DNA from: Naegleria gruberi
Taxonomy: Eukaryota
Length of the DNA: 2,782 bases
NCBI GenBank assembly: GCA_000004985.1
Contig: GG739244.1
Strand: one strand, 5' to 3'
Part shown: positions 1 through 2,782 of the stretch, piece by piece
Position numbering within the stretch: position 1 is the stretch's first letter
Layout: each line of letters begins with the position of its first letter
The notes under the pieces: generated by a model
Databases searched by the model: none
Told to the model about the DNA's origin: nothing
Seen by the model: the letters and a program-made list of their open reading frames with translations, nothing else
Position numbers and translations under genes: made by a program

Positions 1-237
1 ATCAAAATTTATAGAGCTGTCAAAAAGGTTAATTTTGTTGATGAGATGGGTTGTGTATATCAGGCAGATCTGAAAGTGGATGTTTCGTCCATGAGTATTG
101 GAGATATATTTAGAGTGAGATTGTCTTTGAGTGCTGCTAATGCTTTGAGAGTGGATGTTATACCAACAGATGCAACAAAGCAAGTAACAACCACTGTCAC
201 CTTTATGACTCACATGGCTGTCAATCATTTCGAATAA
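1..237 (+). CDS. 3' end of a protein-coding gene of unknown function (C-terminal 78 aa, TAA stop at 235-237). The frame is open to the left window edge, so the gene is 5'-partial. Translation: IKIYRAVKKVNFVDEMGCVYQADLKVDVSSMSIGDIFRVRLSLSAANALRVDVIPTDATKQVTTTVTFMTHMAVNHFE*
   Basis: Frame 1 is open from base 1 to the stop at 235-237. The track ORF 46..237 is just the first internal Met. Codon usage (aga, ttg, gct, caa, cca) matches the other two genes. No - strand ORF covers this region. I do not recognise a domain. Confidence 0.5.
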   Translation: MKIYRAVKKVNFVDEMGCVYQADLKVDVSSMSIGDIFRVRLSLSAANALRVDVIPTDATKQVTTTVTFMTHMAVNHFE

Positions 238-239
238 CC

Positions 240-245
240 TTTATT
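240..245 (-). promoter_or_regulatory. AATAAA hexamer overlapping the stop codon of the 291-aa gene (TAATAAAGG on the - strand). Candidate 3' end signal.
   Basis: Plus-strand TTTATT at 240-245. It sits exactly between the two convergent stop codons. Confidence 0.25.
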
Positions 246-1119
246 AGAAATATTTAGAATAAATGCTATCGACTATTACTCTATTGGCAGCCATTATTCC
301 TGGGCAGATACACTCCATTCCTGCTTTAGACGAACCCCACTCCATTCTAATCTTTGGAATTCGTGACTGTTCACATAAATCACTAATTCTTTGACAATTC
401 TTCAAAATTTCAAAGAATTTGTCTTTGTAAACTTTGTTTTCTATTAATAATTTGTAGCAGTTTGGTAAACGTTTCATAATTGAGGAGTTAAACTTATCCC
501 ATGCCATGCTAATTTGCTGTCTTTCATCAACAGGTTCTAATTTGTAAACAGATTTTGATAGGAGAGAAATGAATAGTTCAGATTCGGAATCATTCTCATT
601 TGGAATAATCTCAAGCATGTAATTAAAAATCATATCTTGATTTCTGGCAGATAAGTTAGTAATCTCATTAAGGATTAGTTCAGTTTTTGAATCAGTAACT
701 TCCATTGATTCTCTATTTCTGAAAGAGGCCAGTTCCAATTCTAACTTTCGAATAAGTTCATCACTCTTGTTCTGCTTCTCTTCAAGCTCTCTGATTCTTC
801 CCAACAGATCAACTTTTTCTTGTCTCAAAGTTTCGTTTTCAGAAAGAAGTTTCTCTTCAGCAATGGAATTCCTTCTCTTTTCCCTGTCTACAGTTTCTAC
901 GAATAAGTCTGATGTGCTAGCTTTAGTTTGCAATGTTTTTCTGTTATTTTGACTGATTGTATTCTCACAATTACTTGCTCCACTCACCATCTTATTAACT
1001 CTTGAGGAATTATTCGACATTTTGCAGTTTGTATCACCAAATCTATTCAGGCTACTGTTACTATTCTTTGAAGTGGTAGTGGATGTGGTTGTTAAAGATC
1101 TGCTATTGCTTATTGGCAT
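244..1119 (-). CDS. 291-aa protein. It has a Ser/Thr/Asn-rich low-complexity N-terminus (aa 7-70), a central leucine-heptad coiled coil (aa ~78-136) and a C-terminal ~150-aa region of unknown function containing Cys residues. Function unknown.
   Basis: Complete ORF with ATG at 1117-1119 and TAA at 244-246. There is an A-rich context before the ATG (caaaaaaATG on the - strand). The coiled coil shows as REKRRNSIAEEKLLSENETLRQEKVDLLGRIRELEEKQNKSDELIRKLELELASFRNRE with Leu at a 7-residue spacing (L91, L98, L105, L112). Codon usage is consistent with the neighbouring genes. Confidence 0.75.
   Translation of the reverse strand: MPISNSRSLTTTSTTTSKNSNSSLNRFGDTNCKMSNNSSRVNKMVSGASNCENTISQNNRKTLQTKASTSDLFVETVDREKRRNSIAEEKLLSENETLRQEKVDLLGRIRELEEKQNKSDELIRKLELELASFRNRESMEVTDSKTELILNEITNLSARNQDMIFNYMLEIIPNENDSESELFISLLSKSVYKLEPVDERQQISMAWDKFNSSIMKRLPNCYKLLIENKVYKDKFFEILKNCQRISDLCEQSRIPKIRMEWGSSKAGMECICPGIMAANRVIVDSIYSKYF
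258..263 (+). promoter_or_regulatory. AATAAA hexamer 21 nt downstream of the + gene stop codon. Candidate polyadenylation-type 3' end signal.
   Basis: Read directly from the sequence: TAAcctttattagaaatatttagAATAAAtg. Chance occurrence in AT-rich DNA is plausible. Confidence 0.25.
712..888 (-). other. Predicted coiled coil (~59 aa) with a four-heptad leucine repeat in the 291-aa protein.
   Basis: The charged/hydrophobic heptad periodicity is visible in the translation. Leu occurs at residues 91, 98, 105 and 112, followed by LIRKLELELASF. Confidence 0.6.
910..1101 (-). other. Ser/Thr/Asn-rich low-complexity N-terminal region of the 291-aa protein (SRSLTTTSTTTSKNSNSSLNRF...NNSSRVN...).
   Basis: Compositional bias is visible in the translation. 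This is typical of eukaryotic disordered regions and a possible O-glycosylation or phosphorylation substrate. Confidence 0.6.
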
Positions 1120-1153
1120 TTTTTTGTATGGAGAAACAACTTGTAGTTGATTT

Positions 1154-1159
1154 TTTATT
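1154..1159 (-). promoter_or_regulatory. AATAAA hexamer 20 nt downstream of the stop of the HSPA12-vWA gene, inside the 60-bp spacer that precedes the 291-aa gene. Candidate 3' end signal and/or part of the downstream gene's promoter or leader.
   Basis: The - strand spacer reads TAAtttcgtctactttcttttgtAATAAAaaatcaactacaagttgtttctccatacaaaaaaATG. Confidence 0.25.
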
Positions 1160-1179
1160 ACAAAAGAAAGTAGACGAAA

Positions 1180-2782
1180 TTAGTTTGCAACTGGGTGATT
1201 AGCAATTTCTTGATAGATTCCAGCTAAACTAGCAGAATCGTTTGCTCTCTTGAATTGACCTCTTCCTGTAGCTGCCATTTGTCTGAGACCAGTATTATCT
1301 GATGATCCACCAAGTTGAATTGTATGAAGAATAATATCATGAGATGAAACTAGTTGACCAGTAATACTAACGGCCTCATCTGCTGAATCTTCACCATCAG
1401 ACATGAATAAGACAACAATTTTGTATGATTGATGGTTTGGATAAGTAGACGAAATTAAAGACGAAACTGATTGCATGGCATTGGTAAAGCTTGTTCCACC
1501 ACCAGCAACGTAGGATGACATGGTGCTGACTAAACTTGTGGAAAGAGGATTTGTAGTGAAGCAATTATATGCAGAATGATCATACATGATACAAGAAACA
1601 AGATCACTTGATCCATCTCTAACCTCTAAGAACTTTTCACAAGATTCGAATAATGCTCCAAGTCTGTCATTACTGTACTTTGAGGAAGTTGGTCTTGCAT
1701 CTGATCCTCCCATTGATCCTGACTTGTCATTGACAAAGATAAAGTGAAAAACTTCTGAAGAAATTTGTGGACCAGGTGGAGGTGCATTATTAATCAAATG
1801 TCTTTCAAAGTCAACTGATGCCTTAAAACTCTTTTTAGAAGTCAAGTCAATGGCATGTATTTCAATAGCACTTTTACCAAAGAACATTTCAACTTGAACA
1901 ATTCTGTCCATGCCTCTTGTTCCCTTCATGTCAATAAGAATCTCACCACATTTCTTTACGAAACTTTCAGTGACAAATCTTGTGTTTGGAATTGGTGACA
2001 GGTACAATTCCAAAATCATTGATTCTTGACTCTCACTGGTTACACCATATTCTCTCACAACAACCTGATCATATCTAACTTCATCATTCACATCAACATA
2101 AATGTCAAAGCAATCTTTACAATATGGCTCATTTCTTCCTTTGAGTTTAATCTTTTTCTTTTCATCATGAACATTGGGAATGAATTTCTTGTAAGAGGTC
2201 ACTCCATAACTTCTTCTCATTCTTCTGGTAACGATTAAGGATGGATCTCTTCCAAGCATGACAGCTCCCTTTACAATAGCTCCACCAGGGCTTGGAGGAA
2301 CCACAACTTTACAAATTGGACTTTGGAACTTTTGAGTTAGTCTACTTTGTAGTACCTTTGATTCACCAAAACCACCCACTACAAATATATAGTTGAACTC
2401 CCTACTGGAATCGTTAAAATTATCTCTCATTTGAATTAGTTCTTTTTGGACATGACTTTCAATTTCAGTGAGAACGCCTTCGAATATTTTATCTAGACAA
2501 TTGGTGGTAAGAATGATTCTTCCAAGTCTGAAATGAGTCTTGACTAGTTGATTGGTCAAATCTGCATGAGTGGTAAAGAATTCTTTAAGAAGGCCATCAA
2601 TTTGAATAAACTGTTGAGTAGAGATGTTTTCAATGCTAACTTTCTTCTTCTCCCACAAACTCATCAATTCTTCAAATTGAGCTGGTTTGCTAATTTTCAA
2701 TTCGTGCATAAAATCTTGACCAAATATATCTGACATTACTTGAATAAACTTGGCATCTAAATAGGAAGAACCACATGCACCA
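1180..2782 (-). CDS. Atypical Hsp70/actin-fold ATPase of the HSPA12 type, fused to a C-terminal von Willebrand factor A (vWA) domain with an intact MIDAS motif. The gene is 5'-partial. The N-terminal part of the ATPase domain lies beyond the right window edge. Stop codon TAA at 1180-1182.
   Basis: The track ORF 1180..2736 starts at an internal Met. The same frame stays open through 2737-2781 (GACGSSYLDAKFIQV upstream of that Met) with matching codon usage. Only ~116 aa precede the adenosine motif, too few for a whole ATPase domain. The adenosine motif is IFVVGGFGESKVLQ (cf. Hsp70 VLVGGSTRIPKVQ and HSPA12 GGFAES). The connect-2 segment is PGGAIVKGAVMLG (cf. Hsp70 DEAVAYGAAVQA). HSPA12-like distal blocks are RRMRRSYGV, VKKCGEILIDMKGTRG and AIEIHAIDLTSKKSFKASVDF, recalled from memory of the family. 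A linker NNAPPPGPQ follows. The vWA domain has beta1 FHFIFVNDKSGSMGG (DxSxS), GGGTSFTNAM (MIDAS Thr) and IVVLFMSDGEDS (MIDAS Asp). Confidence 0.85.
   Translation of the reverse strand, partial: GACGSSYLDAKFIQVMSDIFGQDFMHELKISKPAQFEELMSLWEKKKVSIENISTQQFIQIDGLLKEFFTTHADLTNQLVKTHFRLGRIILTTNCLDKIFEGVLTEIESHVQKELIQMRDNFNDSSREFNYIFVVGGFGESKVLQSRLTQKFQSPICKVVVPPSPGGAIVKGAVMLGRDPSLIVTRRMRRSYGVTSYKKFIPNVHDEKKKIKLKGRNEPYCKDCFDIYVDVNDEVRYDQVVVREYGVTSESQESMILELYLSPIPNTRFVTESFVKKCGEILIDMKGTRGMDRIVQVEMFFGKSAIEIHAIDLTSKKSFKASVDFERHLINNAPPPGPQISSEVFHFIFVNDKSGSMGGSDARPTSSKYSNDRLGALFESCEKFLEVRDGSSDLVSCIMYDHSAYNCFTTNPLSTSLVSTMSSYVAGGGTSFTNAMQSVSSLISSTYPNHQSYKIVVLFMSDGEDSADEAVSITGQLVSSHDIILHTIQLGGSSDNTGLRQMAATGRGQFKRANDSASLAGIYQEIANHPVAN
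1207..1749 (-). other. von Willebrand factor A (vWA) domain with a complete metal-ion-dependent adhesion site (MIDAS: D337-x-S339-x-S341 ... T415 ... D447).
   Basis: DKSGS is encoded at nt 1714-1728 (checked codon by codon: gac aag tca gga tca). GGGTSF and MSDGED lie at the positions expected for the MIDAS Thr and Asp. The hydrophobic beta-strand patterns FHFIFV, IVVLFM and IILHTI alternate as in a Rossmann-like vWA fold. Confidence 0.85.
1801..2782 (-). other. HSPA12-like Hsp70/actin-superfamily ATPase region. This is the C-terminal part of the nucleotide-binding fold plus the family-specific distal segment (aa up to ~312 of the visible ORF).
   Basis: The adenosine motif VVGGFGES is encoded at nt 2359-2388. 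Connect-2 follows about 30 aa later. The blocks RRMRRSYGV, VKKCG..GTRG and AIDLTSKKS resemble vertebrate HSPA12A/B as I remember them. Confidence 0.7.

What the first reader, a model, noticed from the sequence alone, without database searches (positions are those of the whole stretch)
244..1182. Coiled-coil protein immediately downstream of the HSPA12-vWA gene, in the same frame and separated only by a single TAA plus a 20-codon open spacer
The 291-aa ORF starts 60 bp after the TAA of the ATPase-vWA gene, on the same strand. The ATG at 1117-1119 is in the same frame as the stop at 1180-1182, and all 20 intervening codons are open (FRLLSFVIKNQLQVVSPYKK).

This could be coincidence; I estimate the chance very roughly at 10%. 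It could also reflect stop-codon readthrough or a recent nonsense mutation splitting one longer ATPase-vWA-linker-coiled-coil protein. A third option is two co-expressed partners.

The spacer contains the window's only CGT Arg codon and an AATAAA. Both favour a non-coding spacer.

The downstream protein has a disordered S/T/N-rich N-terminus, a four-heptad leucine coiled coil and a C-terminal region with Cys spacings CQRISDLC and CIC. It resembles no family I recognise.
Basis: partly seen in the sequence, partly recalled or inferred. Interest (0 to 1): 0.55.

Follow-up and report, generated by a model that had tools for sequence, protein, structure and literature searches.

The report
Hsp70-like ATPase and its coiled-coil partner
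Two separate neighbouring genes of the amoeba Naegleria gruberi, an HSPA12-type Hsp70-vWA ATPase and a small coiled-coil protein, share a reading frame only by chance, but the same pairing recurs in other amoebae and in bacteria, so the small protein is probably the ATPase's cofactor.

Summary
The sequence facts hold. On the minus strand there is a TAA at 1182-1180, a 60-nt stop-free spacer, then an ATG at 1119-1117 opening a 291-codon ORF. The window is a 2.8-kb Naegleria gruberi scaffold.

The shared frame is coincidence, with a chance of about 0.07. In a close relative (L001):
- the ATPase-vWA protein ends at the same residue (…ANHPVAN*);
- the spacer is 77 nt, so the frame differs;
- the read-through frame stops after 13 codons.

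No fused homologue was found, so read-through and a split gene are rejected.

The adjacency itself is meaningful. The 291-aa protein belongs to a small family seen only in Naegleria and Willaertia. It has a disordered N-terminus, a leucine-heptad helix, a helical bundle and a short β C-terminus. Family members flank Hsp70-vWA or HSPA12-like genes in three genomes.

All five bacterial HSPA12-like Hsp70 genes I examined are followed directly by a coiled-coil gene. One of these passes Pfam MIEAP and weakly matches GrpE. Profile comparison links the amoebal family to these bacterial partners suggestively, not conclusively.

Best reading: a cofactor of the ATPase, possibly GrpE-like, in an operon-like arrangement.

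The parts
1180..2781 (-). 3' part (533 codons plus TAA) of an HSPA12-type Hsp70-like ATPase fused to a C-terminal vWA domain. The 5' end runs off the scaffold.
   Evidence: Pfam VWA E=4.5e-8. 79% identical to the full 814-aa L001 protein, which hits Pfam HSP70 and VWA. Annotated as N. gruberi predicted protein P0004.
1210..1740 (-). vWA domain. It has an intact MIDAS pattern: DKSGS at 1714-1728, then GGGTSF, then SDGED.
   Evidence: Pfam VWA covers residues 348-524 of the partial protein. The motif residues are read directly from the translation.
1120..1179 (-). 60-nt intergenic spacer, stop-free in the frame shared by both ORFs. It contains AATAAA at 1154-1159.
   Evidence: The 5' part is poorly conserved and carries indels of 3 and 14 nt relative to L001.
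1110..1136 (-). 27-nt block TTTCTCCATACAAAAAAATGCCAATAA, identical in N. gruberi and L001. It spans the first ATG (1117-1119). It is a candidate core promoter, 5' leader and start-codon context.
   Evidence: Alignment. The 18-nt core occurs only once in L001. The function is inferred.
244..1119 (-). 291-codon ORF plus TAA: the coiled-coil partner protein. The public model starts at the second in-frame ATG (1018-1020, 258 aa).
   Evidence: Its orthologue P0002 (57% identity) lies in the same position in L001.
916..1119 (-). Disordered S/T/N-rich N-terminus (aa 1-68), poorly conserved.
   Evidence: pLDDT below 50 for residues 1-68. Alignment.
709..915 (-). Long helix (aa 69-137) with a leucine heptad: L91, L98, L105, L112, S119, L126, F133. 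Predicted dimerising coiled coil.
   Evidence: AlphaFold2 helix 69-137, with 10-residue block means of pLDDT from 63 to 92 across it and a peak near 92. Heptad register.
367..690 (-). Helical bundle (aa 144-251). It contains the family-conserved V[ST]DSKTE helix, the acidic loop PNENDSESE (N174 and D177 invariant) and a W..F motif.
   Evidence: Models (pTM 0.76 for the C-terminal domain alone). Family alignments.
247..366 (-). C-terminal β segment (aa 252-291): IPKIRMEW … CICPGIM … NRVIV. This is the part that aligns with the C-terminal β region of the bacterial Hsp70-partner proteins.
   Evidence: Strands 257-262, 269-277 and 280-283, at low confidence. hhalign register and permutation controls.
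240..245 (-). AATAAA overlapping the stop codon of the 291-aa ORF.
1..237 (+). Last 78 codons plus TAA of a convergent HSPA12-like gene. Its stop is 6 nt from the stop of the 291-aa ORF.
   Evidence: tblastn E=2e-7 to the C-termini of both Willaertia HSPA12-like proteins that flank the Hsp70-vWA gene.

Best explanation

The shared reading frame and the stop-free 60-nt spacer are coincidence. The TAA is a genuine, conserved stop.

The 291-aa protein is a diverged member of a class of coiled-coil proteins that are the genomic partners of HSPA12-like Hsp70 ATPases. In bacteria they sit immediately downstream in the same operon, and one of them is recognisable as Pfam MIEAP and weakly as GrpE.

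Inferred mechanism: the protein dimerises through its leucine-heptad helix. Its helical bundle and short β C-terminus dock on the nucleotide-binding domain of the neighbouring ATPase and tune its ATP/ADP cycle, as GrpE does for DnaK. The MIDAS-bearing vWA domain holds the target.

The head-to-tail arrangement with a short spacer mirrors the bacterial operon and probably serves co-expression.

Shown: gene separateness, orthologue comparison, family membership and recurrent adjacency.
Inferred: homology to MIEAP/GrpE-like partners, physical interaction and nucleotide-exchange role.
For: Separate genes:
- The stop and the last residue of the ATPase-vWA are conserved.
- The L001 spacer is 77 nt, so the frame differs, and the read-through frame has a stop after 13 codons.
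- The spacer 5' half is unalignable and has non-triplet indels.
- No fused homologue appears among the 70 hits.
- The chance of the in-frame open spacer is about 0.07.

Family:
- An exhaustive HMM search finds only the protein itself and the N. gruberi paralogue P0073.
- Further members are P0002, P0076, L001 2..1048, L001 1058..2512, and Willaertia P0075 and the 327-aa protein.

Linkage in amoebae:
- L001 reads P0076(-) / Hsp70-vWA(+) / P0002(+).
- Willaertia reads CC / Hsp70-like / HSPA12-like / Hsp70-vWA / HSPA12-like / CC.
- The window reads HSPA12-like(+) / CC(-) / Hsp70-vWA(-).
- More distant Hsp70-vWA genes (L003, L004) have adjacent coiled-coil genes ending …NPEKHE…PGL…V.

Linkage in bacteria:
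- Five of five bacterial HSPA12-like Hsp70 genes examined have a coiled-coil ORF starting between a 4-nt overlap and 91 nt downstream.
- The Tolypothrix partner hits Pfam MIEAP at E=2e-8, above the curated cut-off, and GrpE at E=2.5e-4 over 134 residues.
- The L009 partner hits GrpE at E=0.009.

Remote homology:
- The L003/L004 partners against the Tolypothrix partner: hhalign P=6.5e-5.
- The 291-aa family against the partners: the same register in every trimming, scores 15.5-21.4.
- Column-permuted nulls have means of 7-10 and maxima of 12-15.4. None of 835 usable permutations reached the observed score. Reversed controls score 7.5-13.2.

Architecture matches GrpE in outline: disordered N-terminus, long helix, helical region, small β C-terminus.
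Against: - The 291-aa protein and its close relatives give no Pfam MIEAP or GrpE hit even at E<=10.
- hhalign P-values for the link to bacterial partners are only 0.003-0.08, with HH probability at or below 12%.
- The β C-terminus is modelled at low confidence.
- The p291 subfamily lacks the F[ND]P..H segment that is the most GrpE-like part of the partners.
- Two family members in L001 (2..1048 and 1058..2512) are not next to an Hsp70 gene.
- Synteny between two close Naegleria genomes alone proves little.
- The number of loci is small.
- There are no expression or interaction data.
Confidence: 0.55

Rival explanations
1. Functional partner, but not a nucleotide-exchange-type cofactor. On this reading the coiled-coil protein is a scaffold, adaptor, substrate or effector recruited by the vWA (MIDAS) domain or the ATPase. 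One possibility is that its invariant acidic loop (N174, D177) binds the MIDAS metal. Another is that it forms assemblies, as human Mieap does.
For: - The same linkage evidence applies as for the best explanation.
- The MIDAS motif DKSGS…T…D is intact.
- N174 and D177 are invariant in the family.
- Human Mieap is described as a protein with intrinsically disordered regions that drives biomolecular condensates (PMC10845071). It is not described as a co-chaperone.
- No GrpE signal is seen for this subfamily.
- The bacterial loci lie among defence-like genes: TIR-WD40, AIG1 GTPases, SLFN/AlbA, patatin and toxin-antitoxin genes.
Against: - The bacterial partners occur with Hsp70 genes that have no vWA domain. 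The partnership is therefore with the ATPase, not the vWA.
- One partner does match GrpE over 134 residues.
Confidence: 0.25
2. The two genes are unrelated neighbours. The adjacency is inherited synteny in a compact genome and has no functional meaning.
For: - Only one true orthologous locus (L001) is available, and it is close: the ATPase is 79% identical.
- N. gruberi-type genomes pack genes tightly. Gaps of 9-242 nt are seen in L001.
- Two family members in L001 are not next to an Hsp70 gene.
Against: - Family members are again next to the Hsp70-vWA/HSPA12-like cluster in Willaertia, in a different order and orientation and on both sides.
- L001 has a member on each side of the ATPase gene.
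- Analogous coiled-coil genes accompany distant Hsp70-vWA genes and five bacterial HSPA12-like genes.
Confidence: 0.13
3. There is one translational unit. Either programmed read-through of the TAA, or a recent nonsense mutation in a formerly fused gene, yields an ATPase-vWA-linker-coiled-coil protein.
For: Same strand, same frame and 20 open codons in N. gruberi.
Against: - The frame is not conserved: the L001 spacer is 77 nt, and the read-through frame there stops after 13 codons.
- The C-terminal residue and the stop are conserved.
- The spacer is not conserved as codons and has 3- and 14-nt indels.
- No homologue has the fused architecture.
- From general knowledge, TAA is the least leaky stop codon.
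- The chance probability of about 0.07 is unremarkable.
- AATAAA lies in the spacer.
Confidence: 0.02
4. Both ORFs are carried on one dicistronic mRNA and translated separately. The downstream gene would then have no promoter of its own in the 60-nt spacer.
For: - The spacer is very short.
- The promoter-proximal motif AACGTGA is enriched upstream of four L001 gene starts: 10 copies against 1.2 expected.
- That motif is absent upstream of P0002 and from the whole window.
- The arrangement copies the bacterial operon.
Against: - AATAAA lies in the spacer.
- A perfectly conserved 27-nt block sits just at the first ATG, as expected for a dedicated core promoter or leader.
- Many L001 genes also lack AACGTGA.
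- No polycistronic transcription is known to me in Naegleria.

This rival concerns transcription only and is compatible with the best explanation.
Confidence: 0.15

Closest known systems
GrpE (Pfam PF01025), the nucleotide-exchange factor of DnaK/Hsp70
   Same: - Encoded next to an Hsp70-family ATPase.
- Similar overall layout: disordered N-terminus, long dimerising helix, helical region and small C-terminal β part.
- A bacterial protein in the equivalent genomic position matches the GrpE profile over 134 residues at E=2.5e-4.
   Different: - No detectable GrpE similarity for the 291-aa protein itself.
- It has five helices after the long helix rather than GrpE's two.
- The F-D-P-x-x-H segment is missing.
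- The partner ATPase is HSPA12-like and fused to vWA. It is not a canonical DnaK.
MIEAP domain (Pfam PF16026; human Mieap/SPATA18)
   Same: - The Tolypothrix protein encoded directly after an HSPA12-like Hsp70 passes the MIEAP curated cut-off: 34.8 bits against 27.
- That protein, the L003/L004 partners and the 291-aa family share a coiled-coil N-terminal half and a C-terminal pattern of hydrophobic strand with W, then h-h-x-P-[GAS]-h-h, then [ND]-[KR]-V-[VI].
- Human Mieap also combines disordered regions and coiled coils (PMC10845071).
   Different: - The 291-aa protein gives no MIEAP hit.
- The link is by profile comparison with permutation controls only.
- Human Mieap is studied as a condensate-forming mitochondrial quality-control factor. 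I found no paper connecting it with HSPA12.
HSPA12A/B-type atypical Hsp70s (the neighbouring gene)
   Same: - The upstream protein's relatives include animal 'heat shock 70 kDa protein 12A-like' and fungal and bacterial 'Hsp70 family' or 'actin-like ATPase' proteins.
- The full-length L001 orthologue has intact DFGTSRSG, DAGGGTVD and VGGFGES ATPase motifs.
   Different: - The heterolobosean proteins carry a C-terminal vWA domain with an intact MIDAS motif.
- The function of HSPA12 itself is described as unknown (PMC13580251).
Chaperone-ATPase plus vWA plus third-component systems (MoxR-vWA 'ternary' conflict systems, Kaur et al. 2020, PMC7159879)
   Same: - A chaperone-type ATPase, a vWA domain and an additional linked protein.
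- That paper also notes HSP70 with GrpE in some GTPase-centred systems.
- Several bacterial loci here sit among defence-like genes.
   Different: - The ATPase is Hsp70-like, not AAA+ MoxR.
- The vWA is fused to the ATPase.
- No PADLOC model matches beyond weak coiled-coil similarity.
- The host here is a eukaryote.
Programmed stop-codon read-through or split genes
   Same: In-frame downstream ORF with an open spacer in N. gruberi.
   Different: The frame, the spacer length and the openness are not conserved in the orthologue, and no fused form is known.

Membership tests
Programmed read-through / split fusion gene | Downstream ORF in the same frame in orthologues | tested here: not met
   The L001 spacer from the stop to the conserved ATG is 77 nt, which is 2 mod 3.
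Programmed read-through / split fusion gene | Stop-free inter-ORF segment conserved as codons | tested here: not met
   The L001 read-through frame stops after 13 codons. The spacer alignment has 3- and 14-nt indels and low identity outside the 27-nt block.
Programmed read-through / split fusion gene | Existence of fused homologues | tested here: not met
   The full-length Hsp70-vWA proteins recovered are 777-814 aa (786 aa in Willaertia) and all end at the vWA domain.
GrpE (PF01025) | Match to the family profile at or above the curated threshold | tested here: not met
   No GrpE hit for the 291-aa protein or its seven relatives at E<=10. hhalign against three GrpE sequences shows no relevant alignment.
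GrpE (PF01025) | Long N-terminal helix forming a dimeric coiled coil, followed by a helical bundle and a C-terminal β domain | tested here: inconclusive
GrpE (PF01025) | Binds the Hsp70 nucleotide-binding domain and accelerates ADP release | not testable with these tools
   This needs biochemistry or a complex prediction.
MIEAP domain (PF16026) | Match to the family profile at or above the curated threshold | tested here: not met
   No MIEAP hit for the 291-aa protein or its relatives. Only the Tolypothrix partner passes, at 34.8 bits against 27.
MIEAP domain (PF16026) | Profile-level similarity to bona fide members | tested here: inconclusive
   hhalign of the family against the partner set that includes the MIEAP-positive protein gives P of 0.003-0.08 in a consistent register. 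The observed scores of 15.5-21.4 exceed all 835 usable column permutations (maxima 12-15.4) and the reversed controls (7.5-13.2).
Genomic partner of HSPA12-like Hsp70 ATPases (class proposed here) | Encoded adjacent to an HSPA12-like Hsp70 gene | tested here: met
   Seen in the window, L001 and Willaertia, in L003 and L004, and in five bacterial loci.
Leucine-zipper-type coiled coil | Leucine or another hydrophobic residue every seventh position in a continuous helix | tested here: met
   L91, L98, L105, L112, (S119), L126, F133 within predicted helix 69-137.
   Of the four Cys, only the one before I-x-P is kept in 5 of 6 members. The others vary to S, F, A, V or I.
HSPA12-like Hsp70 + vWA (upstream gene) | Hsp70/actin-fold ATPase motifs and a vWA domain with MIDAS | tested here: met
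   Pfam VWA hit in the window. HSP70 and VWA hits in the full-length orthologue. DKSGS…T…D and VGGFGES are read directly from the sequence.

The most novel reading that the evidence does not exclude
HSPA12-type Hsp70 ATPases, whose function is still described as unknown, have an ancient dedicated cofactor: a coiled-coil protein with a MIEAP/GrpE-like C-terminal domain. It is encoded directly downstream in bacteria, and the pair persists as an operon-like unit in heterolobosean amoebae. If that is so, the 291-aa Naegleria protein is a diverged member of the class. The MIEAP domain of animal Mieap/SPATA18 would then be predicted to act on HSPA12A/B as a GrpE-like regulator.
Probability: 0.3. Interest if true: 0.7.

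Novelty: new variant of a known kind. Interest (0 to 1): 0.4.

Why it matters
The specific oddity that was flagged, two ORFs in one frame across a single TAA, is a coincidence and does not matter.

What may matter is the gene pair. HSPA12-type Hsp70s are widespread and massively expanded in bivalves. A 2026 review states that their function is unknown (PMC13580251).

A recurrent, physically linked coiled-coil partner gives a concrete, testable hypothesis for a dedicated co-chaperone of this Hsp70 branch. The partner is recognisable in one bacterium as MIEAP-like and GrpE-like. The same hypothesis would cover the biochemical role of the MIEAP domain.

The pair is also an example of a eukaryotic gene pair that keeps the layout of a bacterial operon.

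Tried and rejected
Searches on the 291-aa protein and its family:
- Pfam scan of the protein and seven relatives: only weak coiled-coil noise.
- PDB sequence search with family profiles: nothing.
- The afdb50 fold library was unavailable.
- PADLOC: nothing relevant.
- Rfam on the window: no match.

Attempts to enlarge the families:
- The exhaustive representative search found only the protein itself, one paralogue and a repeat artefact, P0074.
- The word-indexed profile search added only known members.
- Genome contigs and metagenome-contig scans gave nothing new.
- The plasmid tblastn with the Tolypothrix partner was empty.

Look-ups that failed:
- Exact-protein look-ups of the N. gruberi and N. 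fowleri proteins (the window protein, P0009, P0073, P0008) returned no contig. The neighbourhoods of the N. gruberi paralogues therefore could not be inspected.

Ideas rejected:
- A zinc-binding role for the cysteines: they are not conserved.
- An intron joining the two ORFs: there is no good donor before the TAA, and the C-terminus is conserved.
- Direct GrpE membership: there is no signal for this subfamily.

Literature: no paper links Naegleria with HSPA12, MIEAP with HSPA12, or (meaningfully) Mieap with GrpE.

Full report
**Source and anatomy**

The window is a 2,782-bp scaffold of the amoeboflagellate Naegleria gruberi. The 291-aa ORF matches the public 'predicted protein [Naegleria gruberi]' P0001 at 100% identity. 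The longest contig recorded for P0001 is 2,782 bp. The upstream ORF matches P0004.

All relevant genes are on the minus strand:
- The 3' 533 codons of an Hsp70-like ATPase with a C-terminal vWA domain (2781..1183), ending in TAA at 1182-1180. Pfam VWA gives E=4.5e-8.
- A 60-nt spacer (1179..1120).
- A 291-codon ORF (1119..247) ending in TAA at 246-244.

On the plus strand, 1..237 encodes the last 78 residues of a convergent gene. These match the C-termini of two HSPA12-like proteins of Willaertia magna (tblastn E=2e-7). Its stop lies 6 nt from the stop of the 291-aa ORF.

**Checking the observation**

Coordinates, frame and spacer translation (FRLLSFVIKNQLQVVSPYKK) are exactly as described. 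So are the AATAAA in the spacer, the S/T/N-rich N-terminus and the Cys strings. The leucine heptad runs L91, L98, L105, L112, S119, L126, F133.

One detail is wrong. The spacer CGT is not unique, because the 291-aa ORF contains one CGT and two CGA.

The chance of an in-frame, stop-free 60-nt spacer is about 0.07. That is 1/3 for the frame, multiplied by 0.21 from base composition or 0.22 from shuffling the spacer.

**Is it one gene or two?**

A 33-kb contig assembled from run ERR1598038 (locus L001) carries the orthologous pair. It comes from a close relative of N. gruberi, whose ATPase is 79% identical. The evidence for two genes is as follows.

- The ATPase-vWA proteins of both species end at the same residue, …IANHPVAN, followed by TAA.
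- More distant Hsp70-vWA proteins from Willaertia, L003 and L004 also end at the close of the vWA domain.
- In L001 the distance from the stop to the conserved ATG is 77 nt, so the frames differ.
- Reading through the L001 stop meets another TAA after 13 codons.
- The 5' part of the spacer aligns poorly and carries 3- and 14-nt indels.
- None of the 70 homologues of the ATPase has a coiled-coil extension.

Read-through and a recent nonsense split are rejected, and the in-frame spacer is coincidence.

L001 shows how easily this arises with short gaps. Two other same-strand ORF pairs there have in-frame, open gaps of 9 and 18 nt. The 18-nt gap comes from an unmodelled intron.

**The start of the downstream gene**

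A 27-nt block, TTTCTCCATACAAAAAAATGCCAATAA (window 1136..1110), is identical in the two species and is embedded in otherwise diverged sequence. It contains the first ATG in the A-rich context typical of gene starts in L001.

The second in-frame ATG (1020-1018) is the start of the public 258-aa model. It is also conserved as AAAATGTCGAAT.

In L001 the first ATG opens only 23 codons before a TAA, yet stays in frame with the second ATG. A 63-nt GTAAGT…TATTAG intron would remove that stop. Four other apparent introns in L001 can be read from the flanks printed. By my count three are about 43-47 nt, and a fourth may be only about 15 nt with an unclear 3' boundary.

I cannot decide between three readings:
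- an N-terminal extension;
- an upstream ORF;
- an intron.

If the second ATG is the true start, the intergenic gap is 159 nt.

**What the 291-aa protein is**

Standard tools find nothing:
- no Pfam family;
- no PDB relative by sequence;
- no PADLOC model.

An exhaustive profile search of 1.84 billion representatives returned only three hits: the protein itself, one N. gruberi paralogue (P0073, NAEGRDRAFT_79393) and a repeat artefact.

Local searches of the fetched loci added further members:
- P0002, the orthologue;
- P0076, 307 aa, divergently adjacent to the L001 ATPase gene;
- two tandem paralogues at L001 2..1048 and 1058..2512;
- two near-identical Willaertia genes, P0075 (313 aa) and a 327-aa ORF.

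The family shares this layout:
- a variable N-terminus;
- a coiled coil;
- a V[ST]DSKTE helix;
- an acidic loop with invariant N174 and D177;
- W..F;
- [IV]PK[IF][KR]..W;
- C[IL].P[GAS].

AlphaFold2 with this shallow alignment gives the following:
- a disordered 1-68;
- a long helix 69-137;
- a five-helix bundle 144-251, with pLDDT about 75-90 and pTM 0.76 for the domain alone;
- three short, low-confidence strands.

**Genomic association**

Members of this family sit beside Hsp70-vWA or HSPA12-like genes in three heterolobosean genomes, in different arrangements.

| Genome | Gene order |
|---|---|
| N. gruberi window | HSPA12-like(+) / CC(-) / Hsp70-vWA(-) |
| L001 | CC(-) / Hsp70-vWA(+) / CC(+) |
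| Willaertia | CC(-) / Hsp70-like(-) / HSPA12-like(-) / Hsp70-vWA(+) / HSPA12-like(-) / CC(+) |

Two more distant Hsp70-vWA genes, on contigs L003 and L004, are each followed by a convergent coiled-coil gene. L003 carries a second such gene. The C-termini of these proteins read …[FY]NP[ED]KH[EQ]…PGL…V.

**The bacterial counterpart**

The ATPase has bacterial relatives at about 30-35% identity. In all five bacterial loci I could inspect, the Hsp70 gene is followed on the same strand by a coiled-coil ORF of 221-312 aa. The gap ranges from a 4-nt overlap to 91 nt.

| Locus | Source | Partner | Pfam result for the partner |
|---|---|---|---|
| L005 | Tolypothrix | 266 aa | MIEAP E=2.1e-8 (34.8 bits, cut-off 27); GrpE E=2.5e-4 over 134 residues (21.2 bits, cut-off 25.8) |
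| L009 | metagenome contig | 312 aa | GrpE E=0.009 |
| L010 | metagenome contig | 221 aa | none |
| L013 | Streptomyces plasmid | 236 aa | none |
| L014 | Streptomyces plasmid | 244 aa | none |

The Streptomyces proteins end …W[DG][FY]…[SA]PAY[VL]V.GR.YGRQ.VYTV.

The profile comparisons are as follows.

- The L003/L004 partners align with the Tolypothrix protein over the last 68 residues: hhalign P=6.5e-5, probability 64%.
- The amoebal family aligns with the partner set in the same register whichever way the sequences are trimmed. IPKIR.EW pairs with PPGRLVW, and CI.PG… pairs with MHPGY…
- HH P-values for this second comparison are modest, 0.003-0.08.
- The observed scores (15.5-21.4) exceed every one of 835 usable column-permuted controls. 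Those controls have means of 7-10 and maxima of 12-15.4.
- The observed scores also exceed the reversed-sequence controls, 7.5-13.2.

Column permutation is a lenient null, so I treat this as suggestive homology at roughly 60%. The amoebal family shows no direct similarity to GrpE.

**Most likely mechanism**

The pair looks like an Hsp70-type ATPase with its dedicated cofactor, kept in the head-to-tail layout of the bacterial operon.

Steps that are shown:
- the genes are separate;
- the stop is conserved;
- the family exists;
- the adjacency recurs.

Steps that are inferred:
- the 291-aa protein dimerises through the heptad helix;
- it binds the nucleotide-binding domain of the neighbouring ATPase;
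- it regulates nucleotide exchange in the manner of GrpE;
- the vWA MIDAS site (DKSGS…T…D, intact) engages a target.

The main rival keeps the partnership but makes the protein a scaffold, a substrate or a ligand of the vWA domain. The invariant acidic loop and the condensate-forming behaviour reported for human Mieap (PMC10845071) fit that rival.

The defence-like neighbourhoods of several bacterial loci hint at a conflict-system role. They contain TIR-WD40, AIG1 GTPases, SLFN/AlbA, patatin, toxin-antitoxin and Tn7-like genes. This is reminiscent of the chaperone-vWA systems of Kaur et al. (PMC7159879).

**Novelty and score**

As flagged, the finding is ordinary: a chance frame coincidence between two annotated genes.

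The by-product is more interesting. I found no paper connecting MIEAP-like or GrpE-like proteins with HSPA12-type Hsp70s. A 2026 review calls the function of HSPA12 unknown (PMC13580251).

The evidence for the link is comparative and thin: ten loci and weak profile statistics. I therefore rate the overall interest as moderate.

Noticed in passing
window 1-237 (+) and 238-246: This is the C-terminal end of a convergent HSPA12-like gene. Its TAA (235-237) is only 6 nt from the TAA of the 291-aa ORF (244-246), so the two 3' UTRs must overlap. AATAAA on the minus strand (245-240) overlaps the 291-aa ORF's stop.
   Followed up: partly
window 1110-1136 (-); L001 9876-9902: A 27-nt block around the first ATG of the coiled-coil gene is identical in the two species, while the rest of the spacer has diverged. 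It may be a core promoter, leader and start context. Its function is untested.
   Followed up: partly
L001 9893-10003: In the relative, the conserved first ATG opens only 23 codons before a TAA, yet it is in frame with the second ATG (10001). This could be an upstream ORF. Alternatively a 63-nt GTAAGT…TATTAG intron starting at 9961 would remove the stop. N. gruberi has a continuous ORF at this position.
   Followed up: partly
L001 930, 1024, 3915, 3938, 7383, 7396, 7515, 10927, 10986, 11007: The motif AACGTGA occurs 10 times against 1.2 expected, clustered 30-130 nt upstream of four gene starts. It is a likely promoter element. The palindromic pair at 7383/7396 lies inside the called 5' end of the Hsp70-vWA ORF, so the true start there is probably M33 (MAHIQK…). 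That would make the gap to the divergent gene P0076 a bidirectional promoter. The motif is absent upstream of P0002 and from the whole window.
   Followed up: partly
L001 2-1048 and 1058-2512: Two paralogues of the coiled-coil family lie in tandem, separated by 9 nt (TAA ACA GAA AAA ATG). They are again in the same frame with an open spacer. The AACGTGA motifs for the second gene lie inside the coding 3' end of the first. This is a second 'in-frame neighbour' case, which shows how common the pattern is with short gaps.
   Followed up: partly
L002 1569-11599 (Willaertia magna JBEGDK010000065.1): A roughly mirror-symmetric cluster: coiled-coil gene / Hsp70-like / HSPA12-like / Hsp70-vWA / HSPA12-like / coiled-coil gene. 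The two outer coiled-coil genes are near-identical in their C-terminal 200 residues, which suggests a recent duplication or gene conversion.
   Followed up: no
L005, L009, L010, L013 (bacterial loci): The bacterial HSPA12-like Hsp70 and coiled-coil pairs sit among defence-like or mobile genes. L005 has patatin, a kinase and HipA. L009 has AIG1-type GTPases, TIR-WD40 and SLFN/AlbA. L010 has Tn7-like TnsA and TniQ. L013 has RelE/Phd. L009 and L010 also have an unannotated 459-493-aa ORF directly upstream of the Hsp70 gene.
   Followed up: no
L007 3231-8251 (JGI 3300037860): Two tandem HSPA12-like genes are followed by a 131-aa vWA fragment resembling the Naegleria vWA domain, then a 241-aa ORF with a coiled-coil N-terminus. 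This is probably another Hsp70-vWA locus, split by an intron or a frameshift. The neighbours include HECT and poly(A) polymerase domains, which suggests a eukaryotic or giant-virus origin.
   Followed up: no
P0074: An 1,810-aa tandem-repeat protein scored E=2.6e-11 against the two-sequence profile through eight repeated stretches. It is a repeat artefact, not a relative.
   Followed up: yes
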